Shown here: piece by piece, positions 18,013 to 27,446 of the stretch
How the letters are laid out: the number at the start of each line of letters is the position of its first letter
Position numbering within the stretch: the stretch's first letter is position 1
NCBI RefSeq assembly: GCF_054482595.1
Contig: NZ_CM137008.1
Direction: 5' to 3' (one strand)
Length of the DNA: 64,000 nt
The notes under the pieces: model-generated
Databases searched by the model: none
Told to the model about the DNA's origin: nothing
The model's input: the letters and a program-made list of their open reading frames with translations, nothing else
Program-made: the position numbers and the translations under genes

Positions 18013-18186
18013 TCACATTATTTTGATTTTGACATCATAACTTTCAAGCCCGGTCATTTTTTCTCGCGCGGTGAAGCGAATTTCAGAGACTTCTTTCCCT
18101 GTATTCTTGTTCAGCTCGGCGATTTTTTGCGCGATAAAGTCGGCGATTTCCGTTTCGGCTTGTTTTTTTAACTCTTCAATATTCAC
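18013..18186 (-). CDS. gnsA: GnsA (57 aa), GTG start
   Basis: Reverse translation MNIEELKKQAETEIADFIAQKIAELNKNTGKEVSEIRFTAREKMTGLESYDVKIKIM. Confidence 0.85.
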   Translation of the reverse strand: MNIEELKKQAETEIADFIAQKIAELNKNTGKEVSEIRFTAREKMTGLESYDVKIKIM

Positions 18187-18406
18187 TGTTAACCTCTTCT
18201 GGTCTTAAAAGACAGCAACACGCCAGTAAGGTGTTGGTTCCCGGTACCCTGGTCAGGTAAGAAATGTTATAAGCCATCTCCCCGAAAGATTCAATAATCA
18301 ACAGGTTATCGCTTACTATACATACAGCGTTGAAGAAAAATAAGGCAGATATAAAAAAGGCTCCACGAGGGAGCCTGATATTATTTTGTGAAATCCAGCG
18401 GCGCAT
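18176..18406 (-). CDS. ymcE: YmcE (76 aa)
   Basis: Internal Met of ORF 18176-18439 gives MRRWISQNNIRLPRGAFFISALFFF... matching K-12 YmcE. Confidence 0.8.
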   Translation of the reverse strand: MRRWISQNNIRLPRGAFFISALFFFNAVCIVSDNLLIIESFGEMAYNISYLTRVPGTNTLLACCCLLRPEEVNSEY

Positions 18407-18579
18407 GGTCAGTGCGTATTTGCAGCGCGACGTTATCAAAGGTGATCATCGTCGATTTACAAAAAATACACTTAGCGCCCAAAGGGTTTCGCTCCGTCAC
18501 ATCGAATGCCGATGTGCGGTACTGTGAACCATGACAACATGGACAGCGGAAATGGAGATGTTGAGTAATAACGGCAACC

Positions 18580-18792
18580 TTAGAGCGTAACAACGTTCGC
18601 TGCCGCGGGGCCACGTTGCCCCTGCTCAATAGAAAATTCAACTTTCTGATTTTCGTTCAGCGTGCGGAATTCATTGCTCTGGATGGCGGTGAAATGGACG
18701 AAAACGTCTTTGCTGCCATCATCAGGAGTGATAAAGCCAAAACCTTTATCTGCGTTAAACCATTTTACTAAACCAGTCATTTTATTAGACAT
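18580..18792 (-). CDS. cspG: Cold shock protein CspG (70 aa)
   Basis: CSD protein [23 protein letters not shown]...; conserved neighbourhood. Confidence 0.9.
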
Positions 18793-19077
18793 ATTTTACT
18801 TCCTTCATTTTGGGCCTTTCGGCAAACAGGGCTTTAATACAGAAACTACTTAGTGTTCAGGAGAGAGACTCAAAAGAAGGGGATAATGCCTGATAATGAG
18901 AACTGCTTTAGTAAACTACTTTGTATGCTGTCTGTCTTTCCAACCGACGCAGCTATTAACGCATGATAATTGAGATTAAGCAAATTTTATTTTAGCCGTC
19001 CGGCGGTCTTAAATATCGCTGGCTTTATTTTATTAACCCCGTATAGTGCAGCGCAGTATTTTCAGTAAGGAATTTGT

Positions 19078-19290
19078 TTGTCCCGTAAAATGACAGGAAT
19101 TGTCAAAACCTTTGATCGCAAAAGCGGCAAAGGATTCATTATCCCCTCCGACGGTCGTAAAGAAGTTCAGGTCCATATTTCCGCATTCACTCCCCGCGAC
19201 GCAGAAGTGCTTATACCAGGATTACGCGTGGAATTTTGCCGCGTAAATGGCCTGCGAGGACCAACAGCGGCAAATGTTTATCTCTCTTAA
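19078..19290 (+). CDS. cspH: Cold shock-like protein CspH (70 aa)
   Basis: CSD protein [23 protein letters not shown]... Confidence 0.9.
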
Positions 19291-19731
19291 TATGACGCTG
19301 CTTGTTTAAAGCTGACTGGTTTTATTGGCATAGTTCAATAGTCAACACCATGTATTATAACACAAGTTACTTTTTCACCGGAAAACTAATCCATTTGACC
19401 GAATATCTCTACAACTAATAGTTATAAATGCCACTTAACAGCGAGTTATAGTACCACTTGAAACTATATTGCCAACAATAGTTAATAGCTTTCTTAACAA
19501 TTTTCTTATCTTTAATTTGTATTTTGCTAAGATTTATCTTATGCTCACAAGTCGTATTTCCAGAGGGGAATAGTTAACAATCTTATATTTCCCTCTGCGC
19601 GCCTTTCTCACCCGCTGTATATAGTGCAAGTGGTATGAGGAAAGGGAGATTTCACAAGGATGTTATACTCAAAGTAGACAATCCTGATCTCAAGCGTACG
19701 TATTGTCCATGCGATGAATAAAGGAAAAGTT

Positions 19732-20037
19732 ATGAAACACAAGCTTTCTGCAATCCTTATGGCCTTCATGTTGACGACGCCAGCTGCGTTTGCTGCCCCT
19801 GAAGCAGCAAACGGGACCGAGGCAACGACGGGTACTACTGGCACCACAACGACCACTACCGGTGCAACCACGACGGCTGCTACCACTGGTGGCGTGGCTG
19901 CTGGCGCTGTCGGCACGGCGACAGTTGTCGGTGTGGCAACGGCTGTTGGTGTGGCGACGTTGGCAGTAGTTGCAGCAAATGACAGTGGCGATGGCGGTTC
20001 TCATAACACCTCAACCACCACGTCCACTACGCGCTAA
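19732..20037 (+). CDS. gfcA: GfcA (YmcD), Thr-rich secreted protein (101 aa)
   Basis: MKHKLSAILMAFMLTTPAAFA signal peptide then Thr/Gly/Ala/Val low-complexity region; ORF-track start 19714 is an upstream in-frame Met. Confidence 0.85.
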   Translation: MKHKLSAILMAFMLTTPAAFAAPEAANGTEATTGTTGTTTTTTGATTTAATTGGVAAGAVGTATVVGVATAVGVATLAVVAANDSGDGGSHNTSTTTSTTR

Positions 20038-20143
20038 TTCTGCTTAAACGCGTCGAAATTAAAGTTAAATAATACCCGGTTGCGATATTCGTACCGGGCT
20101 TTAGAGATTTGCATTTTTTTAATTAACCTTTCAAGGATTAAAG

Positions 20144-20788
20144 GTGCGCCCTCTTATTTTATCGATTTTCGCACTATTTCTTGCGGGATGTACGCACAGC
20201 CAGCAAAGTATGGTCGATACATTTCGCGCCAGCCTTTTCGATAATCAGGATATCACCGTAGCGGATCAGCAGATCCAGGCGTTGCCTTATTCCACGATGT
20301 ATTTACGCCTTAATGAAGGGCAACGAATCTTTGTGGTACTGGGATATATAGAACAAGAACAAAGCAAATGGTTATCCCAGGATAACGCCATGCTGGTTAC
20401 CCACAATGGACGTCTTTTAAAGACCGTCAAACTTAATAATAATCTGCTGGAAGTGACAAATTCCGGGCAGGACCCTCTGCGTAACGCGCTGGCAATAAAA
20501 GACGGCAGCCGCTGGACGCGCGATATTCTCTGGAGTGAAGACAACCATTTTCGCTCTGCGACCCTGAGTTCCACTTTTTCCTTTGCTGGATTAGAGACGC
20601 TGCATATTGCGGGTCGCGATGTGCTGTGTAATGTCTGGCAGGAAGAGGTGACTTCCACGCTGCCAGAAAAACAGTGGCAAAACACATTCTGGGTCGATTC
20701 GGCTACTGGCCAGGTTCGTCAAAGTCGGCAAATGTTAGGCGCAGGGGTTATTCCCGTAGAAATGACGTTTCTTAAACCCGCACCATGA
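20144..20788 (+). CDS. gfcB: GfcB (YmcC) lipoprotein (214 aa)
   Basis: Lipobox LAGC; operon position. Confidence 0.9.
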   Translation: MRPLILSIFALFLAGCTHSQQSMVDTFRASLFDNQDITVADQQIQALPYSTMYLRLNEGQRIFVVLGYIEQEQSKWLSQDNAMLVTHNGRLLKTVKLNNNLLEVTNSGQDPLRNALAIKDGSRWTRDILWSEDNHFRSATLSSTFSFAGLETLHIAGRDVLCNVWQEEVTSTLPEKQWQNTFWVDSATGQVRQSRQMLGAGVIPVEMTFLKPAP

Positions 20789-21531
20789 ATAAATTACAGT
20801 CGTATTTCATTGCCAGCGTACTTTACGTAATGACACCCCATGCCTTTGCGCAAGGAACGGTGACTATTTATCTGCCTGGCGAACAACAGACACTTTCCGT
20901 TGGCCCCGTGGAGAATGTTGCCCAGTTGGTGACACAACCGCAACTGCGCGATCGCCTCTGGTGGCCTGGTGCCCTGCTGACCGACTCCGCGGTGAAAGCT
21001 AAAGCGCTTAAAGACTACCAACATGTCATGGCACAGCTTGCTTCCTGGGAAGCAGAAGCTGACGACGATGTGGCGGCAACGATTAAATCCGTGCGCCAGC
21101 AGTTACTCAATCTCAATATTACTGGTCGCTTACCGGTCAAACTGGACCCTGATTTTGTACGAGTGGATGAGAACAGCAATCCCCCGCTGGTCGGGAACTA
21201 TACGCTCTATACCGTACAGCGCCCGGTGACTATTACTCTTCTGGGTGCGGTTTCTGGGGCTGGGCAATTGCCCTGGCAGGCAGGCCGTAGCGTTACCGAT
21301 TATCTGCAAGATCACCCCCGTCTTGCAGGCGCGGACAAGAATAACGTTATCGTGATTACGCCTGAGGGTGAGACTGTCGTCGCCCCTGTTGCCCTGTGGA
21401 ATAAAAGACATGTGGAACCACCGCCTGGCAGCCAGCTTTGGTTAGGCTTTTCTGCGCATGTACTGCCCGAAAAATATGCTGATTTAAATGACCAGATTGT
21501 GTCTGTTTTAACGCAACGTGTTCCTGACTGA
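20785..21531 (+). CDS. gfcC: GfcC (YmcB) (248 aa)
   Basis: Signal peptide; operon position; overlapping stop/start. Confidence 0.9.
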
Positions 21532-23627
21532 TGAAGAAGAATTCTTATCTTTTAAGCTGCCTGGCCATTGCCGTCTCCAGTGCCTGTCATGCTGAAGTAT
21601 TAACCTACCCGGATCCGCTGGGTTCGTCGCAATCGGACTTTGGCGGCACAGGATTGTTGCAGATGCCAAATGCGCGCATCGCACCGGAAGGTGAATTCAG
21701 CGTCAACTACCGGGATAACGATCAATACCGTTTCTACTCCACCTCCGTGGCGCTGTTCCCATGGCTGGAAGGCACCATTCGTTATACGGATGTGCGCACA
21801 CGTAAATATAGCCAGTGGGAAGATTTCAGCGGCGATCAGTCATACAAAGACAAATCATTCGATTTTAAACTTCGCCTGTGGGAAGAAGGTTACTGGCTAC
21901 CGCAAGTGGCGTTTGGTAAACGTGATATTGCTGGTACGGGTCTGTTTGACGGTGAGTATCTGGTGGCCAGCAAGCAAGCGGGGCCATTTGATTTCACCCT
22001 CGGGATGGCATGGGGCTACGCCGGTAATGCAGGCAATATTACCAACCCGTTTTGCCGGGTGAGCGATAAATATTGTCATCGCGCAGAGTCTCACGATGCG
22101 GGCGATATCAGCTTTAGCGATATCTTTCGTGGCCCAGCCTCCATCTTTGGCGGCATTGAGTATCAAACGCCGTGGAATCCCCTGCGTCTGAAACTCGAAT
22201 ACGACGGCAACAATTACCAGAATGATTTCGCTGGCAAACTGCCTCAGGCAAGCCATTTCAACGTCGGTGCAGTTTATCGCGCTGCCAGCTGGGCAGACCT
22301 CAACCTGAGTTATGAACGCGGTAACACGTTGATGTTTGGTTTCACTTTACGGACCAATTTCAACGATCTGCGCCCTGCCCTGCGCGATACGCCAAAACCG
22401 GCATATCAACCTGCGCCTGAATCTGAAGGATTGCAGTACACCACGGTAGCAAACCAACTTACCGCCCTGAAGTATAACGCGGGCTTTGACGCGCCAGAAA
22501 TTCAGCTACGCGATAAGACGCTGTATATGTCTGGTCAGCAATACAAATACCGTGACTCTCGTGAAGCGGTCGATCGTGCCAACCGGATTCTGGTGAATAA
22601 CCTGCCGCAAGGCGTTGAGAAGATTAGCGTGACGCAAAAGCGCGAGCATATGGCGATGGTGACTACCGAAACCGACGTAGCCAGCCTGCGCAAACAGCTG
22701 GCAGGTACAGCGCCTGGTCAATCAGAGCCACTGCAACAACAACGTGTTGAAGCTGAAGATCTTTCTGCCTTTGGTCGGGGCTACCGTATTCGTGAAGATC
22801 GCTTTAGCTACTCTTTCAACCCAACACTTTCACAGTCGCTGGGCGGCCCGGAAGATTTCTATATGTTCCAGCTGGGGCTGATGTCCAGCGCCCGCTACTG
22901 GTTTACCGACCACCTGCTGCTTGATGGCGGTATTTTCACCAATATTTACAACAACTACGACAAGTTTAAGTCTTCACTGTTGCCCGCGGACTCTACCCTG
23001 CCCCGCGTGCGCACGCATATCCGTGATTACGTTCGCAATGACGTTTATCTCAACAACTTGCAGGCGAATTACTTTGCCGACTTAGGCAATGGTTTCTATG
23101 GCCAGGTGTATGGCGGTTATCTGGAAACGATGTACGCCGGTGTCGGTTCCGAGCTGCTTTATCGCCCGCTAGATGCCAGCTGGGCGCTGGGTGTGGACGT
23201 TAACTACGTGAAGCAGCGTGACTGGGACAACATGATGCGCTTCACCGATTATTCCACGCCAACTGGTTTCGTGACGGCTTACTGGAACCCGCCGACGCTC
23301 AATGGCGTACTGATGAAACTTAGCGTTGGGCAATATCTGGCAAAAGATAAAGGGGCAACGATCGACGTCGCCAAACGCTTTGACAGCGGCGTGGCGGTAG
23401 GGGTATGGGCGGCAATCAGTAACGTATCTAAAGATGACTACGGCGAAGGCGGCTTTAGTAAAGGTTTTTATATCTCGATTCCGTTCGACTTGATGACCAT
23501 TGGACCTAACCGCAACCGCGCGGTGGTTTCGTGGACACCATTGACGCGTGATGGTGGACAAATGCTGTCACGCAAATACCAGCTCTATCCAATGACGGCA
23601 GAGCGAGAAGTACCGGTTGGACAATAA
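21531..23627 (+). CDS. gfcD: GfcD (YmcA) outer membrane beta-barrel lipoprotein (698 aa)
   Basis: Size, signal peptide, operon position. Confidence 0.9.
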
Positions 23628-23672
23628 CCTGACGTAATTCATAACATTACATTGACTGATAAATATAAACCA

Positions 23673-24812
23673 ATGAAAAAGAACATTTTTAAGTTTTCGG
23701 TACTGACATTGGCTGTTCTGTCTTTGACAGCATGTACCCTTGTTCCTGGTCAGAATTTATCGACCAGTAACAAGGATGTCATTGAACTACCTGACAATCA
23801 GTATGACCTGGACAAAATGGTCAATATCTATCCCGTCACGCCAGGATTGATTGATCAGTTGCGCGCCAAACCGATTATGTCGCAGGCTAACCCGGAGCTG
23901 GAGCAGCAAATCGCGAACTATGAATATCGTATCGGCATTGGTGATGTGTTGATGGTTACGGTCTGGGATCACCCGGAACTAACCACCCCCGCAGGGCAAT
24001 ACCGTAGCGCCAGTGATACCGGCAACTGGGTTAACGCCGATGGTGCGATTTTCTACCCCTATATTGGTCGCCTGAAAGTGGCCGGGAAAACACTTACCCA
24101 GGTACGCAACGAGATTACAGCGCGTCTGGATTCAGTCATTGAAAGCCCGCAGGTCGATGTCAGCGTCGCGGCGTTCCGATCGCAAAAAGCGTACGTCACC
24201 GGCGAAGTCAGCAAATCGGGTCAGCAGCCGATTACCAATATTCCTCTGACCATCATGGATGCGATTAACGCCGCAGGCGGTCTGACCGCAGATGCAGACT
24301 GGCGCAATGTGGTGCTCACCCAGAATGGCGTAAAGACCAAAGTGAACCTCTATGCGCTGATGCAGCGTGGCGACTTGCGCCAGAACAAACTGCTGCACCC
24401 GGGAGATATTTTATTTATTCCGCGCAACGATGATCTGAAAGTCTTCGTGATGGGTGAAGTGGGTAAACAGAGCACGCTGAAAATGGACCGCAGCGGTATG
24501 ACCCTGGCGGAAGCGCTGGGTAACGCTGAGGGTATGAATCAGGATGTCGCTGATGCGACGGGGATTTTTGTTATTCGTGCAACGCAAAACAAGCAGAATG
24601 GCAAAATCGCCAATATTTATCAGCTGAATGCGAAGGACGCATCGGCAATGATACTCGGAACGGAATTCCAGCTTGAACCTTACGACATTGTTTATGTCAC
24701 TACCGCGCCTCTGGCTCGTTGGAACCGTGTGATTTCTCTGCTGGTACCGACGATTTCCGGGGTGCATGACCTGACAGAGACTTCACGGTGGATTCAAACA
24801 TGGCCCAACTAA
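23673..24812 (+). CDS. gfcE: GfcE (YccZ), Wza-like polysaccharide export lipoprotein (379 aa)
   Basis: Start at [21 protein letters not shown] (lipobox); Wza-like. Confidence 0.9.
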
Positions 24813-25246
24813 AATTTAACTCAATCCTGGTGGTTTGTACCGGCAACATTTGCCGTTCGCCCATTGGCGAGCGCTTGCTGCGTAAACGTCTGCCGGGCGT
24901 AAAAGTCAAATCGGCAGGTGTTCATGGTCTGGTAAAACACCCTGCAGATGCGACAGCGGCAGATGTTGCCGCTAATCATGGCGTATCTCTTGAAGGACAT
25001 GCCGGACGTAAGCTCACTGCTGAGATGGCACGAAATTACGATCTGATTCTGGCAATGGAGTCGGAACATATTGCTCAGGTTACCGCAATCGCTCCCGAGG
25101 TCCGCGGGAAGACAATGCTGTTTGGGCAATGGCTGGAACAGAAAGAGATCCCGGATCCCTATCGTAAAAGTCAGGACGCATTTGAACATGTCTACGGTAT
25201 GTTGGAGCGCGCCAGTCAGGAATGGGCGAAGCGCCTCAGCCGGTAA
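24800..25246 (+). CDS. etp: Etp, low-molecular-weight protein-tyrosine phosphatase (148 aa)
   Basis: CTGNICRS P-loop motif; start at [16 protein letters not shown]. Confidence 0.9.
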
Positions 25247-25265
25247 TTTGAGTTTATAAAATACG

Positions 25266-27446
25266 ATGACAACTAAAAATATGAATACGCCACCAGGCAG
25301 CACTCAGGAAAATGAGATCGATCTGCTTCGTCTGGTCGGCGAGTTATGGGATCACCGTAAGTTTATTATCAGCGTGACCGCGTTATTCACGCTGATCGCT
25401 GTCGCTTACTCGCTGTTAAGCACACCAATTTATCAGGCAGATACTCTGGTCCAGGTTGAGCAAAAACAGGGCAACGCCATTCTCAGCGGCCTGAGTGATA
25501 TGATCCCTAACTCATCGCCCGAGTCTGCACCGGAGATCCAACTGCTGCAATCGCGCATGATTCTCGGTAAAACCATTGCTGAACTGAATCTGCGCGACAT
25601 GGTTGAGCAGAAGTATTTTCCGATTGTGGGTCGCGGCTGGGCGAGATTAACCAAAGAGAAACCAGGTGAGCTGGCGATCAGCTGGATGCATATTCCACAA
25701 CTGAATGGTCAGGATCAGCAACTGACACTCACGGTTGGGGAAAACGGCCACTATACGCTGGAAGGTGAAGAGTTCACCGTCAATGGTATGGTCGGCCAGC
25801 GTCTGGAAAAAGATGGCGTTGCGCTGACTATAGCGGATATTAAGGCCAAACCAGGAACACAGTTTGTCCTGAGCCAACGTACCGAACTGGAAGCGATTAA
25901 CGCGTTGCAGGAAACCTTTACCGTTAGCGAACGCAGTAAAGAAAGCGGGATGCTGGAACTTACCATGACCGGTGATGATCCCCAGTTGATTACCCGTATT
26001 CTGAACAGCATCGCTAACAACTATTTGCAACAGAATATCGCTCGCCAGGCGGCGCAGGATTCACAAAGCCTTGAATTCTTACAGCGCCAGTTGCCTGAAG
26101 TGCGCAGCGAGCTGGACCAGGCGGAAGAAAAACTCAACGTTTATCGCCAGCAGCGCGATTCGGTTGACCTTAACCTGGAAGCCAAAGCCGTTCTTGAGCA
26201 GATTGTGAACGTTGATAATCAACTCAATGAGCTGACCTTCCGCGAGGCAGAGATCTCCCAGCTGTATAAGAAAGATCACCCAACTTATCGTGCGCTGCTG
26301 GAAAAACGCCAGACGCTGGAGCAAGAACGCAAACGCCTGAATAAGCGGGTATCGGCTATGCCTTCCACCCAACAGGAAGTGTTGCGTTTAAGTCGTGACG
26401 TAGAAGCGGGCCGTGCGGTATATCTGCAATTACTTAACCGCCAGCAGGAGTTGAGTATTTCGAAATCCAGTGCCATTGGTAACGTGCGGATTATCGACCC
26501 GGCAGTCACTCAGCCGCAGCCAGTGAAACCGAAAAAAGCGTTGAACGTGGTGCTTGGTTTTATTCTTGGCCTGTTTATTTCGGTGGGTGCCGTGCTGGCG
26601 CGTGCGATGTTGCGTCGTGGTGTAGAAGCACCGGAACAACTGGAAGAGCACGGCATCAGCGTTTATGCCACTATCCCAATGTCCGAGTGGCTGGATAAAC
26701 GCACCCGTCTGCGTAAGAAAAATTTATTTTCTAATCAGCAGCGCCATCGTACTAAAAATATCCCCTTCCTGGCGGTGGATAACCCGGCGGATTCTGCTGT
26801 GGAAGCCGTACGTGCGCTACGAACCAGTCTGCATTTCGCTATGATGGAGACTGAGAATAACATTCTGATGATCACCGGTGCGACGCCAGACAGTGGTAAA
26901 ACATTTGTCAGTTCAACTCTGGCAGCGGTGATCGCCCAGTCCGATCAAAAAGTGTTATTTATTGATGCCGACTTACGCCGTGGTTATTCGCATAACCTGT
27001 TTACCGTGAGTAATGAACATGGCTTGTCGGAATATCTGGCAGGTAAAGATGAGCTCAACAAAGTGATCCAGCATTTTGGCAAAGGAGGCTTTGATGTGAT
27101 TACTCGCGGTCAGGTGCCACCTAACCCGTCTGAACTGCTGATGCGCGATCGGATGCGTCAATTACTGGAATGGGCGAACGACCATTACGATCTGGTGATT
27201 GTCGATACGCCGCCGATGCTGGCGGTGAGCGATGCTGCGGTCGTGGGGCGCTCTGTCGGCACCAGCCTGCTGGTTGCACGTTTTGGCCTGAACACCGCCA
27301 AAGAGGTGAGTTTGTCAATGCAGCGTCTGGAACAGGCAGGCGTCAATATTAAAGGCGCTATCCTCAATGGTGTGATTAAACGCGCCAGCACCGCTTACAG
27401 TTACGGCTATAACTATTACGGTTATAGTTACTCCGAGAAAGAGTAA
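25266..27446 (+). CDS. etk: Etk, BY-kinase (Wzc-like tyrosine autokinase), 726 aa
   Basis: Walker A GATPDSGKT, C-terminal Tyr cluster YSYGYNYYGYSYSEKE. Confidence 0.9.
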   Translation: MTTKNMNTPPGSTQENEIDLLRLVGELWDHRKFIISVTALFTLIAVAYSLLSTPIYQADTLVQVEQKQGNAILSGLSDMIPNSSPESAPEIQLLQSRMILGKTIAELNLRDMVEQKYFPIVGRGWARLTKEKPGELAISWMHIPQLNGQDQQLTLTVGENGHYTLEGEEFTVNGMVGQRLEKDGVALTIADIKAKPGTQFVLSQRTELEAINALQETFTVSERSKESGMLELTMTGDDPQLITRILNSIANNYLQQNIARQAAQDSQSLEFLQRQLPEVRSELDQAEEKLNVYRQQRDSVDLNLEAKAVLEQIVNVDNQLNELTFREAEISQLYKKDHPTYRALLEKRQTLEQERKRLNKRVSAMPSTQQEVLRLSRDVEAGRAVYLQLLNRQQELSISKSSAIGNVRIIDPAVTQPQPVKPKKALNVVLGFILGLFISVGAVLARAMLRRGVEAPEQLEEHGISVYATIPMSEWLDKRTRLRKKNLFSNQQRHRTKNIPFLAVDNPADSAVEAVRALRTSLHFAMMETENNILMITGATPDSGKTFVSSTLAAVIAQSDQKVLFIDADLRRGYSHNLFTVSNEHGLSEYLAGKDELNKVIQHFGKGGFDVITRGQVPPNPSELLMRDRMRQLLEWANDHYDLVIVDTPPMLAVSDAAVVGRSVGTSLLVARFGLNTAKEVSLSMQRLEQAGVNIKGAILNGVIKRASTAYSYGYNYYGYSYSEKE

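What the first reader, a model, noticed from the sequence alone, without database searches (positions are those of the whole stretch)
19795..20030. Thr/Gly/Ala/Val low-complexity coding repeat in gfcA
After the signal peptide GfcA is almost entirely T, G, A, V runs (TTGTTGTTTTTTGATTTAATTGG...) encoded by repetitive ACN/GGN/GCN codons. Such tracts are prone to slipped-strand length variation between strains and are likely O-glycosylation-like or extended linker regions.
Basis: seen in the sequence. Interest (0 to 1): 0.2.

Follow-up and report, generated by a model that had tools for sequence, protein, structure and literature searches.

The report
Threonine-rich capsule protein GfcA, length-stable
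The flagged stretch is the mature part of GfcA, a known small threonine-rich protein needed for the E. coli group 4 capsule; the DNA is not truly repetitive and its length is the same in about 99% of E. coli genomes that carry it, so it is ordinary.

Summary
Window 19795-20030 is codons 22-100 of gfcA (CDS 19732-20037, +, 101 aa), the first gene of gfcABCDE-etp-etk in E. coli O157:H7. The mature protein is 81% Thr/Gly/Ala/Val.

- a Thr-rich tract (residues 22-53);
- a conserved hydrophobic Gly/Ala/Val segment (54-82), a borderline membrane helix and not a linker;
- a conserved polar tail ending in Thr (83-101).

The repeat exists in the protein, not in the DNA. Synonymous codons are mixed, no 9-mer recurs, and the longest period-3 run is 8 nt.

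The slippage prediction largely fails. Of 5,426 complete E. coli genomes, 3,607 carry gfcA. About 270 rows were listed across six searches (some records recur), and every full-length match but one had the reference length. Identity bands cap indel alleles at roughly 1%.

Only two length events were found, both in the Thr tract at short direct repeats:
- an 18-bp tandem duplication (5 genomes);
- a 15-bp deletion (2 genomes).

Larger variation comes from loss of the whole operon in about a third of genomes and from IS insertions. Between species the Thr tract does change length (101, 94-96, 85 aa).

Glycosylation remains an untested speculation that is already in the literature. Known gene, low interest.

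The parts
19732..20037 (+). gfcA (ymcD) CDS, 101 aa plus stop; first gene of gfcABCDE-etp-etk
   Evidence: The ORF list contains it. It is 100% identical to O157:H7 records annotated 'threonine-rich inner membrane protein GfcA', WP_001299283.1. AGGA lies at 19722-19725, 6 nt before the ATG.
19732..19794 (+). Signal peptide, residues 1-21 (MKHK / LSAILMAFML / TTPAAFA, predicted cleavage AFA|AP)
   Evidence: Read from the sequence using the -3/-1 rule; no dedicated predictor was available. It is the only part that a GfcA-group profile aligns with a YjbE-group profile (hhalign probability 97%). It differs at 1 of 63 nt from a cryptic-clade Escherichia allele.
19795..19890 (+). Thr-rich low-complexity tract, residues 22-53 (16 Thr, 7 Ala, 5 Gly of 32)
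   Evidence: Composition. It is the fastest-evolving segment (16/96 nt and 7/32 aa against Escherichia sp. MOD1). It holds all indels among GfcA orthologues and both E. coli length variants. AlphaFold2 pLDDT is 37-41 here.
19833..19850 (+). 18-nt unit TACTACTGGCACCACAAC that is tandemly duplicated (+6 aa, TTGTTT; 107-aa allele) in F9792 and four other genomes
   Evidence: H173, span 109 instead of 91. gfcB and gfcC are intact downstream.
19852..19866 (+). 15 nt ACCACTACCGGTGCA, deleted (-5 aa; 96-aa allele) in CAVP773, OY754834 and some draft genomes. It is bounded by ACCAC direct repeats and is the first unit of the weak period-15 array 19852-19886.
19891..19977 (+). Hydrophobic Gly/Ala/Val segment, residues 54-82 (GVAAGAVGTATVVGVATAVGVATLAVVAA); candidate membrane helix
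   Evidence: Kyte-Doolittle 19-mer maximum is 2.16. The summed Hessa scale gives +0.98 kcal/mol for residues 63-81, which is borderline. AlphaFold2 draws a helix at 59-84 with low confidence. The segment is nearly invariant among Escherichia and conserved in Enterobacter sp..
19978..20034 (+). Polar C-terminal tail, residues 83-101 (NDSGDGGSHNTSTTTSTTR); family hallmark D-G-x-N-T-x-poly-Thr
   Evidence: It differs at 2 of 57 nt from the MOD1 allele. The motif recurs as GGGDGSNTGTTTTTTTST in YjbE-type proteins.
20075..20098 (+). Stem-loop CCCGGT...ACCGGG in the 106-nt gfcA-gfcB spacer
   Evidence: it is not significantly stable (z = -1.4) and no canonical terminator was scored. A stronger hairpin follows yjbE (z = -3.2). 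Its function is inferred only.
20144..20788 (+). gfcB (lipoprotein), next gene in the operon

Best explanation
The region is the mature part of GfcA (YmcD), the known small Thr-rich protein encoded by the first gene of the E. coli group 4 capsule operon.

Shown here:
- The low complexity is a property of the protein and is maintained by selection. It is not an unstable DNA repeat.
- The mature protein has three parts. The Thr-rich N-terminal tract keeps its composition but varies in sequence and, between species, in length. The hydrophobic Gly/Ala/Val segment is strongly conserved. The polar tail ending in a Thr run is also conserved.
- A small protein with a signal peptide and this build sits immediately upstream of every gfcB/yjbF-like gene examined. 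GfcA is therefore a divergent relative of YjbE (PF11106) carrying an Escherichia-specific expansion of the Thr tract.

Shown by others: deleting gfcA in EPEC abolishes the capsule, and gfcA supplied in trans restores it.

Inferred:
- GfcA is exported by Sec and its signal peptide is cut at AFA|AP.
- The Gly/Ala/Val segment then holds it in the inner membrane as a borderline stop-transfer helix.
- The Thr-rich tract forms a hydrophilic, disordered periplasmic stalk that works with GfcB, GfcC and GfcD in assembling or anchoring the O-antigen capsule.
- Whether the Thr residues carry glycan is unknown.
For: Identity and context: 100% match to annotated GfcA, in the gene order cspG, cspH, gfcA, gfcB, gfcC, gfcD, gfcE, etp, etk, appA.

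Not a DNA repeat.

Length stability:
- 3,607 of 5,426 genomes carry the gene, and distant-mode blastn finds no additional ones.
- All full-length sampled rows span 306, 471 or 91 bp as in the reference, across O157:H7, O145:H28, O111:H8, O104:H4, O91:H21, O27:H7, O152:H23, K-12 and others.
- In the 91-bp tract query, 31 genomes fall in the 90-95% identity band and 3 cover less than 80%.
- A cryptic-clade allele with 8% DNA divergence still aligns without gaps over 306 bp.

Rare length events.

Segment-specific conservation.

Synteny: 21 of 21 gfcB/yjbF-like loci from species-representative genomes have such an ORF upstream.

Bridge to YjbE: short GfcA-like proteins match PF11106 end to end below threshold (E = 4.9e-5 and 0.026). 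E. coli GfcA does not match.

Hydrophobic segment.

Function: PMC3853201 (delta-gfcA has no capsule and is complemented). PMC8592465 cites Peleg 2005 that loss of any gfc gene abolishes the buoyancy phenotype, and describes GfcA as a 30% Thr, 101-aa inner membrane or secreted protein.
Against: - Topology and localisation are untested. The hydrophobic segment is only borderline (+1 kcal/mol on a crude summed scale).
- The C-terminal tail is net acidic, which is atypical for a cytoplasmic tail.
- The paralogue YjbE has no plausible membrane segment (+5.2 kcal/mol), so membrane anchoring cannot be the family's common mechanism.
- AlphaFold2 confidence is low throughout (mean pLDDT 44.5).
- Homology of the mature regions of GfcA and YjbE is not statistically demonstrable. 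BLASTP finds nothing and hhalign aligns only the signal peptide.
- My length census samples rows and uses identity bands. It is not a full enumeration, and 3-bp indels on the O157-type background (about 440-510 genomes) are bounded only by sampling.
Confidence: 0.6

Rival explanations
1. GfcA is a carrier or anchor glycoprotein. Its Thr/Ser residues are O-glycosylated with O-antigen units or polymer, and the conjugate is handed by GfcB/GfcC to the outer-membrane protein GfcD for surface display.
For: - This speculation is published (PMC8592465).
- Thr runs are conserved across the family, including an invariant T7 run in 80-aa YjbE proteins from about a dozen genera.
- Composition is conserved while sequence drifts, as expected for a glycan-acceptor tract.
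- gfcA was the most highly expressed surface-structure gene tested in EPEC (PMC3853201).
Against: - There is no experimental evidence of any modification.
- From general knowledge, E. coli K-12 and O157 have no known general O-oligosaccharyltransferase. A waaL mutant still retains some encapsulation (PMC3853201).
- If the Gly/Ala/Val segment is a stop-transfer helix, the conserved C-terminal Thr run would be cytoplasmic.
- Near-identical GfcA across many O serotypes argues against recognition of a serotype-specific glycan, although it does not exclude a generic acceptor role.
Confidence: 0.2
2. GfcA is not membrane-anchored. Like YjbE it is a soluble, disordered periplasmic or secreted polypeptide, and its Gly/Ala/Val stretch mediates self-association or binding to GfcB, GfcC or GfcD rather than spanning the bilayer.
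For: - YjbE and the Mixta homologue lack a credible membrane segment.
- The GfcA segment is borderline, rich in small residues in a 6-residue repeat (VGVATA/VGVATL), and has an acidic tail.
- The literature leaves 'inner membrane or secreted' open (PMC8592465).
Against: - Kyte-Doolittle 2.16 over 19 residues and a 29-residue uncharged stretch are typical of membrane helices.
- RefSeq names it an inner membrane protein.
- AlphaFold2 draws a helix of membrane-spanning length, though at low confidence.
Confidence: 0.17
3. The tract is a contingency locus whose length changes frequently by slipped-strand mispairing, generating strain-to-strain variants.
For: Two length variants exist in the Thr tract, each bounded by short direct repeats. 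The tract differs in length between Escherichia species and Enterobacter.
Against: - There is no perfect repeat longer than 8 nt and no homocodon run beyond ACCACCAC.
- About 99% of 3,600 genomes share one length.
- The duplication is mostly in one lineage: four of its five genomes are from one set of strains, two labelled O169:H41.
- All changes are in frame, so there is no on/off switching.
Confidence: 0.02
4. The composition reflects something other than gfcA coding, such as one of the long antisense ORFs or a structured RNA.
For: Antisense ORFs of 102 and 104 aa overlap the gene. There is a weak Rfam isrG match at 19743-20005 (15.5 bits, E = 0.3).
Against: - Reverse complements of ACN/GCN/GGN/GTN codons cannot form stop codons in register, so long antisense ORFs are expected.
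- The Rfam match is far below the family's gathering score of 100.
- The sense ORF has a Shine-Dalgarno sequence, a signal peptide, conserved synteny and a complemented deletion phenotype (PMC3853201).
Confidence: 0.01

Closest known systems
GfcA / YmcD of the E. coli group 4 capsule operon (Peleg et al. 2005, as cited in PMC8592465; PMC3853201)
   Same: It is this gene. The sequence is 100% identical to the O157:H7 RefSeq protein WP_001299283.1, occupies the same operon position, and has the same 101-aa length and Thr richness.
   Different: Nothing differs. The O157 allele has 2 amino-acid changes from the majority K-12-type allele (A26T, A50T). It lacks the IS1 that sits about 33 bp upstream of gfcA in K-12.
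YjbE (Pfam PF11106), first gene of yjbEFGH
   Same: Both are small proteins with a signal peptide encoded directly upstream of paralogous B, C and D genes (GfcB and YjbF are 39% identical). Both have a low-complexity Ser/Thr/Gly/Ala mature region, an AVGVA-type hydrophobic core, and a C-terminal GDG-x-NT-poly-Thr tail.
   Different: - E. coli GfcA does not match PF11106 at E <= 10.
- YjbE is 80 aa, Ser-rich rather than Thr-rich in the middle, and has no plausible membrane segment.
- GfcA carries an extra Thr-rich insertion of about 16 residues relative to short GfcA-like proteins that do approach the PF11106 model.
Simple-sequence contingency loci of bacterial surface genes (slipped-strand phase or length variation)
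   Same: It is a surface-polysaccharide gene with a compositionally repetitive tract. Rare in-frame duplication and deletion occur at short direct repeats.
   Different: There is no perfect multi-unit repeat, synonymous codons are mixed, and the length is fixed in about 99% of genomes.
Thr/Ser-rich O-glycosylated stalks or linkers of secreted proteins (mucin-like regions)
   Same: The composition is similar and the tract is predicted to be disordered.
   Different: No glycosylation machinery or modification has been shown for GfcA. The tract is only about 32 residues long.

Membership tests
GfcA (group 4 capsule operon, E. coli) | First gene of an operon followed by gfcB, gfcC, gfcD, gfcE (wza-like), etp and etk | tested here: met
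   Annotated context of the 100%-identical O157:H7 record; the ORFs for gfcB and gfcC follow in the window.
GfcA (group 4 capsule operon, E. coli) | About 101-aa protein with an N-terminal signal sequence and about 28-30% Thr | tested here: met
   101 aa, Thr 27.7%, n/h/c regions ending AFA|AP. PMC8592465 gives 30% and 101 aa.
GfcA (group 4 capsule operon, E. coli) | Required for capsule formation | not testable with these tools
   Reported for EPEC O127 (PMC3853201; Peleg 2005 via PMC8592465). EHEC expresses gfcA about 30-fold lower and showed no capsule under the tested condition (PMC3853201).
YjbE family (Pfam PF11106) | Match to the PF11106 model at or above the gathering score (27.9 bits) | tested here: not met
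   There is no hit for E. coli GfcA even at E <= 10. YjbE scores 113.6 bits. GfcA-like proteins of 85-86 aa score 15-24 bits, end to end.
YjbE family (Pfam PF11106) | Encoded immediately upstream of YjbF/GfcB-, YjbG/GfcC- and YjbH/GfcD-like genes | tested here: met
YjbE family (Pfam PF11106) | Statistically supported similarity of the mature region to YjbE | tested here: inconclusive
   BLASTP finds no alignment. hhalign aligns only the signal peptide. The shared C-terminal motif is seen only by eye in alignments.
Slipped-strand contingency locus | Perfect or near-perfect tandem DNA repeat of several units | tested here: not met
   The only array found has period 15, 2.3 copies and 80% matches. 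The longest exact repeat is 8 nt.
Slipped-strand contingency locus | Frequent repeat-number differences between strains | tested here: not met
   Seven of about 3,600 genomes carry the two known length alleles, and the upper bound is about 1%.
Bitopic inner-membrane protein | A hydrophobic segment sufficient for stop-transfer, and demonstrated membrane localisation | tested here: inconclusive
   Kyte-Doolittle 2.16 and summed Hessa +0.98 kcal/mol are borderline. The AlphaFold2 helix at 59-84 has pLDDT below 50. Localisation is not testable here.
O-linked glycoprotein | Glycan attached to Ser/Thr, and a cognate transferase | not testable with these tools
   Only a speculation in PMC8592465.

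The most novel reading that the evidence does not exclude
GfcA/YjbE-type proteins could be a dedicated class of small, disordered, Thr-rich acceptor peptides. In this reading they become covalently loaded with capsule or exopolysaccharide, pass to the two-barrel outer-membrane protein GfcD/YjbH via GfcB/GfcC, and form the long-sought surface anchor of group 4 capsules. The strict conservation of tract length within E. coli, and of the T7 run in YjbE across genera, would then reflect a fixed number or spacing of acceptor sites.
Probability: 0.12. Interest if true: 0.65.

Novelty: already known. Interest (0 to 1): 0.12.

Why it matters
It matters little as a discovery. The gene, its Thr richness and the glycosylation idea are all in the literature.

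The useful result is negative and corrective. A protein-level low-complexity tract is not automatically an unstable DNA repeat. Here mixed synonymous codons and purifying selection keep the length fixed across thousands of genomes and many O serotypes. That invariance also argues against a serotype-specific role for GfcA within E. coli, a role proposed for soft-rot enterobacteria (bioRxiv 10.1101/391854).

The three-segment anatomy and the bridge to PF11106 give a cleaner starting point for experiments on a still uncharacterised but essential capsule component.

Tried and rejected
- The word-indexed protein search with GfcA returned mostly frameshifted or chimeric gene calls. The exact GfcA sequences (O157, K-12-type, 107-aa and 96-aa alleles) are absent from the 15-billion-protein collection. 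Population frequencies therefore could not be taken from that source.
- Distant-mode blastn repeated the same sample. Its only new information was that no divergent gfcA alleles exist in the other 1,819 genomes.
- I first thought codon choice actively avoids DNA repeats. Proper nulls, using own-codon shuffles and genome-usage draws, show the observed repetitiveness is merely typical (P about 0.27), so that claim was dropped.
- AlphaFold2 with a 14-sequence alignment gave mean pLDDT 44.5. No fold search was run because matches to such a model would be meaningless.
- A PDB profile search found nothing relevant.
- NCBIfam gave only sub-threshold chance hits.
- The promoter and terminator scans found nothing above shuffle expectation.
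- The weak Rfam isrG match was rejected as chance.
- The antisense ORFs were rejected as a codon-composition artefact.
- I could not list the 31 genomes in the 90-95% band. Querying with the ET776 allele showed that allele is only one mismatch from the K-12 type and of normal length.

Full report
WHAT IS THERE

The window matches E. coli O157:H7 chromosomes at 100% identity around the finding. The annotated context in one such record is torS, yccM, gnsA, ymcE, ymcF, cspG, cspH, gfcA, gfcB, gfcC, gfcD, gfcE, etp, etk, appA.

The finding lies in gfcA, CDS 19732-20037 on the + strand (101 aa). An AGGA sits 6 nt upstream of the ATG. An in-frame ATG at 19714 has no such site and is not the annotated start.

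Its end, 20030, is in codon 100. The flagged interval is therefore the whole mature protein.

CHECK OF THE OBSERVATION

The protein contains T28, A22, G13 and V9 of 101 residues. The mature 80 residues are 81% T/G/A/V. The tract is a G+C peak (0.66) between AT-rich flanks.

At the DNA level it is not a simple repeat:
- Thr uses ACG x12, ACC x9, ACT x5 and ACA x2.
- The longest exact direct repeat in the CDS is 8 nt, and no 9-mer recurs.
- The longest perfect period-3 run is ACCACCAC.
- Tandem Repeats Finder reports one weak array: period 15, 2.3 copies, 80% matches, at 19852-19886.
- Shuffling synonymous codons, or redrawing them from E. coli usage, gives similar or slightly higher repetitiveness (P(null <= observed) about 0.27-0.33).
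- The 7-mer repeat load is near the 94th percentile of 306-nt windows of this 64 kb.

'Repetitive codons' holds only in the sense of codon families.

ANATOMY

The mature protein is not one tract but three segments.
- Residues 22-53 are the Thr-rich part proper, APEAANGTEATTGTTGTTTTTTGATTTAATTG, with 16 Thr.
- Residues 54-82, GVAAGAVGTATVVGVATAVGVATLAVVAA, form an uncharged hydrophobic stretch. Its Kyte-Doolittle 19-mer maximum is 2.16. A crude summed Hessa scale gives +0.98 kcal/mol, which is borderline for membrane insertion.
- Residues 83-101, NDSGDGGSHNTSTTTSTTR, form a polar tail ending in a Thr run.

AlphaFold2 with a 14-sequence alignment is unconfident everywhere (mean pLDDT 44.5). It draws a helix at 59-84 and nothing stable in the Thr tract. 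This is compatible with disorder but is not strong evidence for it.

THE STRAIN-VARIATION TEST

Presence. Of 5,426 complete E. coli genomes, 3,607 have a gfcA match. The more sensitive blastn mode finds exactly the same 3,607, so the rest have no divergent allele.

Sampling. Rows were taken evenly down the rankings or from the top of rankings seeded with different alleles.
- Every full-length match spans exactly the query length. That is 34 rows for a 471-bp query, 58 for the CDS, and 58 for a 91-bp tract-only query.
- The same holds for 40 rows against a cryptic-clade allele that is 8% divergent yet aligns ungapped, and for 60 rows against the ET776 allele.
- Some records recur between these lists. 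The only exception is F9792.
- The sampled strains include O157:H7, O145:H28, O111:H8, O104:H4, O91:H21, O27:H7, O152:H23, O121 and K-12.

Bound from identity bands. For the 91-bp tract query the bands are 442 genomes at >=99%, 3,119 at 95-99% and 31 at 90-95%. Three genomes have less than 80% coverage. On the majority backgrounds, which have 2-3 mismatches, any indel of 3 nt or more would drop a genome into the 90-95% band. So at most about 1% can carry one.

Alleles actually found. Using a deletion allele as query brought the real variants to the top of the ranking.
- Two complete genomes (CAVP773, OY754834) lack 15 nt, ACCACTACCGGTGCA (window 19852-19866). The deletion is bounded by ACCAC repeats and gives a 96-aa protein with gfcBCD intact.
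- Five genomes carry a perfect 18-nt tandem duplication of 19833-19850. This adds +TTGTTT to give 107 aa, with gfcB and gfcC intact. They are F9792, F8111-1SC3, F6326-C1, 2014EL-1345-2 and LR882990, and two of them are labelled O169:H41.
- The 15-nt deletion also occurs in draft genomes where the sequence after the gfcA 3' end is replaced and gfcE lies about 0.9 kb downstream.

These are the footprints slippage would leave, but they are rare and apparently clonal.

LARGER VARIATION

Much more common variation is of other kinds.
- In about a third of genomes (for example O25:H4, O1:K1:H7, ST38), cspH abuts appA and the whole operon is absent.
- IS elements repeatedly hit the gene or its upstream region. 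IS1 lies about 33 bp upstream in K-12. IS3 is in the 3' end or middle of gfcA in TST3 and Tig228, and within the cspH-gfcC interval in PSS-15. IS5 replaces most of the gene in VREC0864 and lies upstream in CAVP773.

COMPARISON ACROSS SPECIES

A scan of one genome per species with a GfcB/YjbF alignment returned 21 loci. In every one, a small ORF with a signal peptide and 60-79% T/S/G/A/V lies directly upstream.

GfcA-type proteins are:
- 101 aa in E. coli and a cryptic Escherichia clade;
- 94-96 aa in E. albertii;
- 85-86 aa in an Enterobacter sp. and in a metagenomic relative.

All gaps fall inside the Thr tract. TTGG...hydrophobic...DxxDG...T-run is nearly invariant.

Against the cryptic-clade allele, divergence by segment is:
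- Thr tract: 16/96 nt and 7/32 aa;
- hydrophobic segment: 8/87 nt;
- tail: 2/57 nt;
- signal peptide: 1/63 nt.

YjbE-type proteins are exactly 80 aa, with an unchanged TTTTTTT run, in about a dozen genera.

A profile search of 1.8 billion representatives found only 34 relatives. Those retrieved and read (19 of them) are about 76-130 aa and mostly share the pattern signal peptide, G-[ED]-AAG, hydrophobic G/A/V/L/I stretch, then GGGDGSNTG-T(n)-ST. A few are frameshifted or chimeric gene calls.

The Thr tract has therefore expanded in the Escherichia lineage and is now held constant. Composition and length are constrained while exact sequence is less so.

FAMILY ASSIGNMENT

E. coli GfcA matches no Pfam or NCBIfam model. 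PF11106 (YjbE) scores as follows:
- YjbE: 113.6 bits;
- the Mixta homologue: 43 bits;
- the 86-aa GfcA-like protein: 24 bits, end to end;
- the 85-aa GfcA-like protein: 15 bits, end to end.

The last two are below the gathering score of 27.9 bits. BLASTP of GfcA against YjbE finds nothing. hhalign of the two groups aligns only the signal peptides.

I therefore treat GfcA as a divergent relative of YjbE. The basis is synteny, architecture and intermediates, not a demonstrated Pfam membership.

WHAT IS KNOWN

- Larson et al. (PMC8592465) describe gfcA as encoding a 101-aa, 30% Thr 'inner membrane or secreted' protein of unknown function. They speculate that it might be modified by O-antigen and directed to GfcD.
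- They cite Peleg et al. 2005 for loss of capsule buoyancy on loss of any gfc gene.
- Thomassin et al. (PMC3853201) show that EPEC delta-gfcA is unencapsulated and is complemented by gfcA alone. They also show that EHEC expresses gfcA about 30-fold less than EPEC.
- A preprint on soft-rot enterobacteria (10.1101/391854) reports that the gfcA locus is highly variable between taxa but always upstream of gfcBCD, and proposes a serotype-specific role.
- The near-identity of GfcA across many E. coli O serotypes found here argues against that role within E. coli.
- A modelling study calls GfcA 'entirely uncharacterized' (10.1101/2023.12.04.565983).

MECHANISM

Shown: gene identity, operon context, segment structure, conservation pattern, rarity of length change.

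Shown by others: requirement for capsule formation.

Inferred:
- Sec export with cleavage at AFA|AP.
- Retention in the inner membrane by the Gly/Ala/Val segment.
- A hydrophilic, disordered Thr stalk in the periplasm cooperating with GfcB, GfcC and GfcD.

The main uncertainties are the anchor and glycosylation. The anchor is in doubt because the paralogue YjbE has no credible membrane segment and the GfcA tail is acidic. Glycosylation is in doubt because there are no data. I give the glycoprotein-carrier model about 0.2 and a soluble, non-anchored model about 0.17.

VERDICT

The hypervariability interpretation is largely refuted, since length is about 99% invariant with two rare slippage-like alleles. 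The glycosylation or linker idea is untested, already published, and applicable only to the Thr-rich parts. This is an already known gene feature of low interest.

Noticed in passing
window 19078-27000 region (cspH to appA); hits H300-H311: In about one third of complete E. coli genomes (about 1,770-1,820 of 5,426, including O25:H4, O1:K1:H7 and ST38 strains), cspH lies directly next to appA. The entire gfcABCDE-etp-etk operon is therefore absent.
   Followed up: partly
window about 19699 (upstream of gfcA), 19860-20015 (inside gfcA); loci L002, L028, L030, L031: The gfcA gene and its upstream region are repeatedly hit by IS elements in other strains. IS1 lies about 33 bp upstream of the start codon in K-12. 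IS3 is inside gfcA in TST3 and Tig228, and within the cspH-gfcC interval in PSS-15. IS5 replaces most of gfcA in VREC0864 and lies upstream in CAVP773.
   Followed up: partly
L008-L020 (yjbE-like ORFs upstream of yjbF-like genes): YjbE-type proteins are exactly 80 aa, with an unchanged TTTTTTT run and GGGDGSNTG motif, in about a dozen enterobacterial genera. That is striking length conservation for a protein that is 75-79% T/S/G/A/V.
   Followed up: partly
L021, L023, L024 (Arsukibacterium), ORFs about 1920-2360: In Arsukibacterium the gene in the gfcA position encodes a larger protein of 125-129 aa. It has the hydrophobic IGGV...AAAIISNN segment, then a run of 7-11 prolines, a Cys...Cys pair and a TVTGTGTGTNTGTTT tail. 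It does not match PF11106.
   Followed up: no
window 20038-20143 and L003 4150-4262: Both gfcA and yjbE are followed by a spacer of about 105-115 nt containing a stem-loop (z = -1.4 and -3.2). The downstream B, C and D genes overlap by a few bases. This layout could give the first gene a different expression level, but no canonical terminator was scored.
   Followed up: partly
window 19608-19916 (-) and 19690-20004 (-): Two long antisense ORFs (102 and 104 aa) overlap gfcA. This is expected, because reverse complements of ACN/GCN/GGN/GTN codons cannot form in-register stop codons.
   Followed up: yes
window 18526-18948 (-): A full-length match to the Rfam cspA thermoregulator (153 bits, E = 3.6e-41) covers the cspG 5' leader and start of the gene.
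   Followed up: no
window about 18177-18406 (-): ymcE is annotated as a frameshifted pseudogene in the identical O157:H7 record, but as intact in other strains.
   Followed up: no
protein collections: The exact GfcA sequences (O157 type, K-12 type, 107-aa and 96-aa alleles) are not present in the 15-billion-protein collection, although the gene is in thousands of genomes. Only frameshifted or chimeric calls were retrieved. The reason is unknown. Small low-complexity proteins like this one may be under-represented in that resource, which would also make the count of 34 relatives an underestimate.
   Followed up: partly
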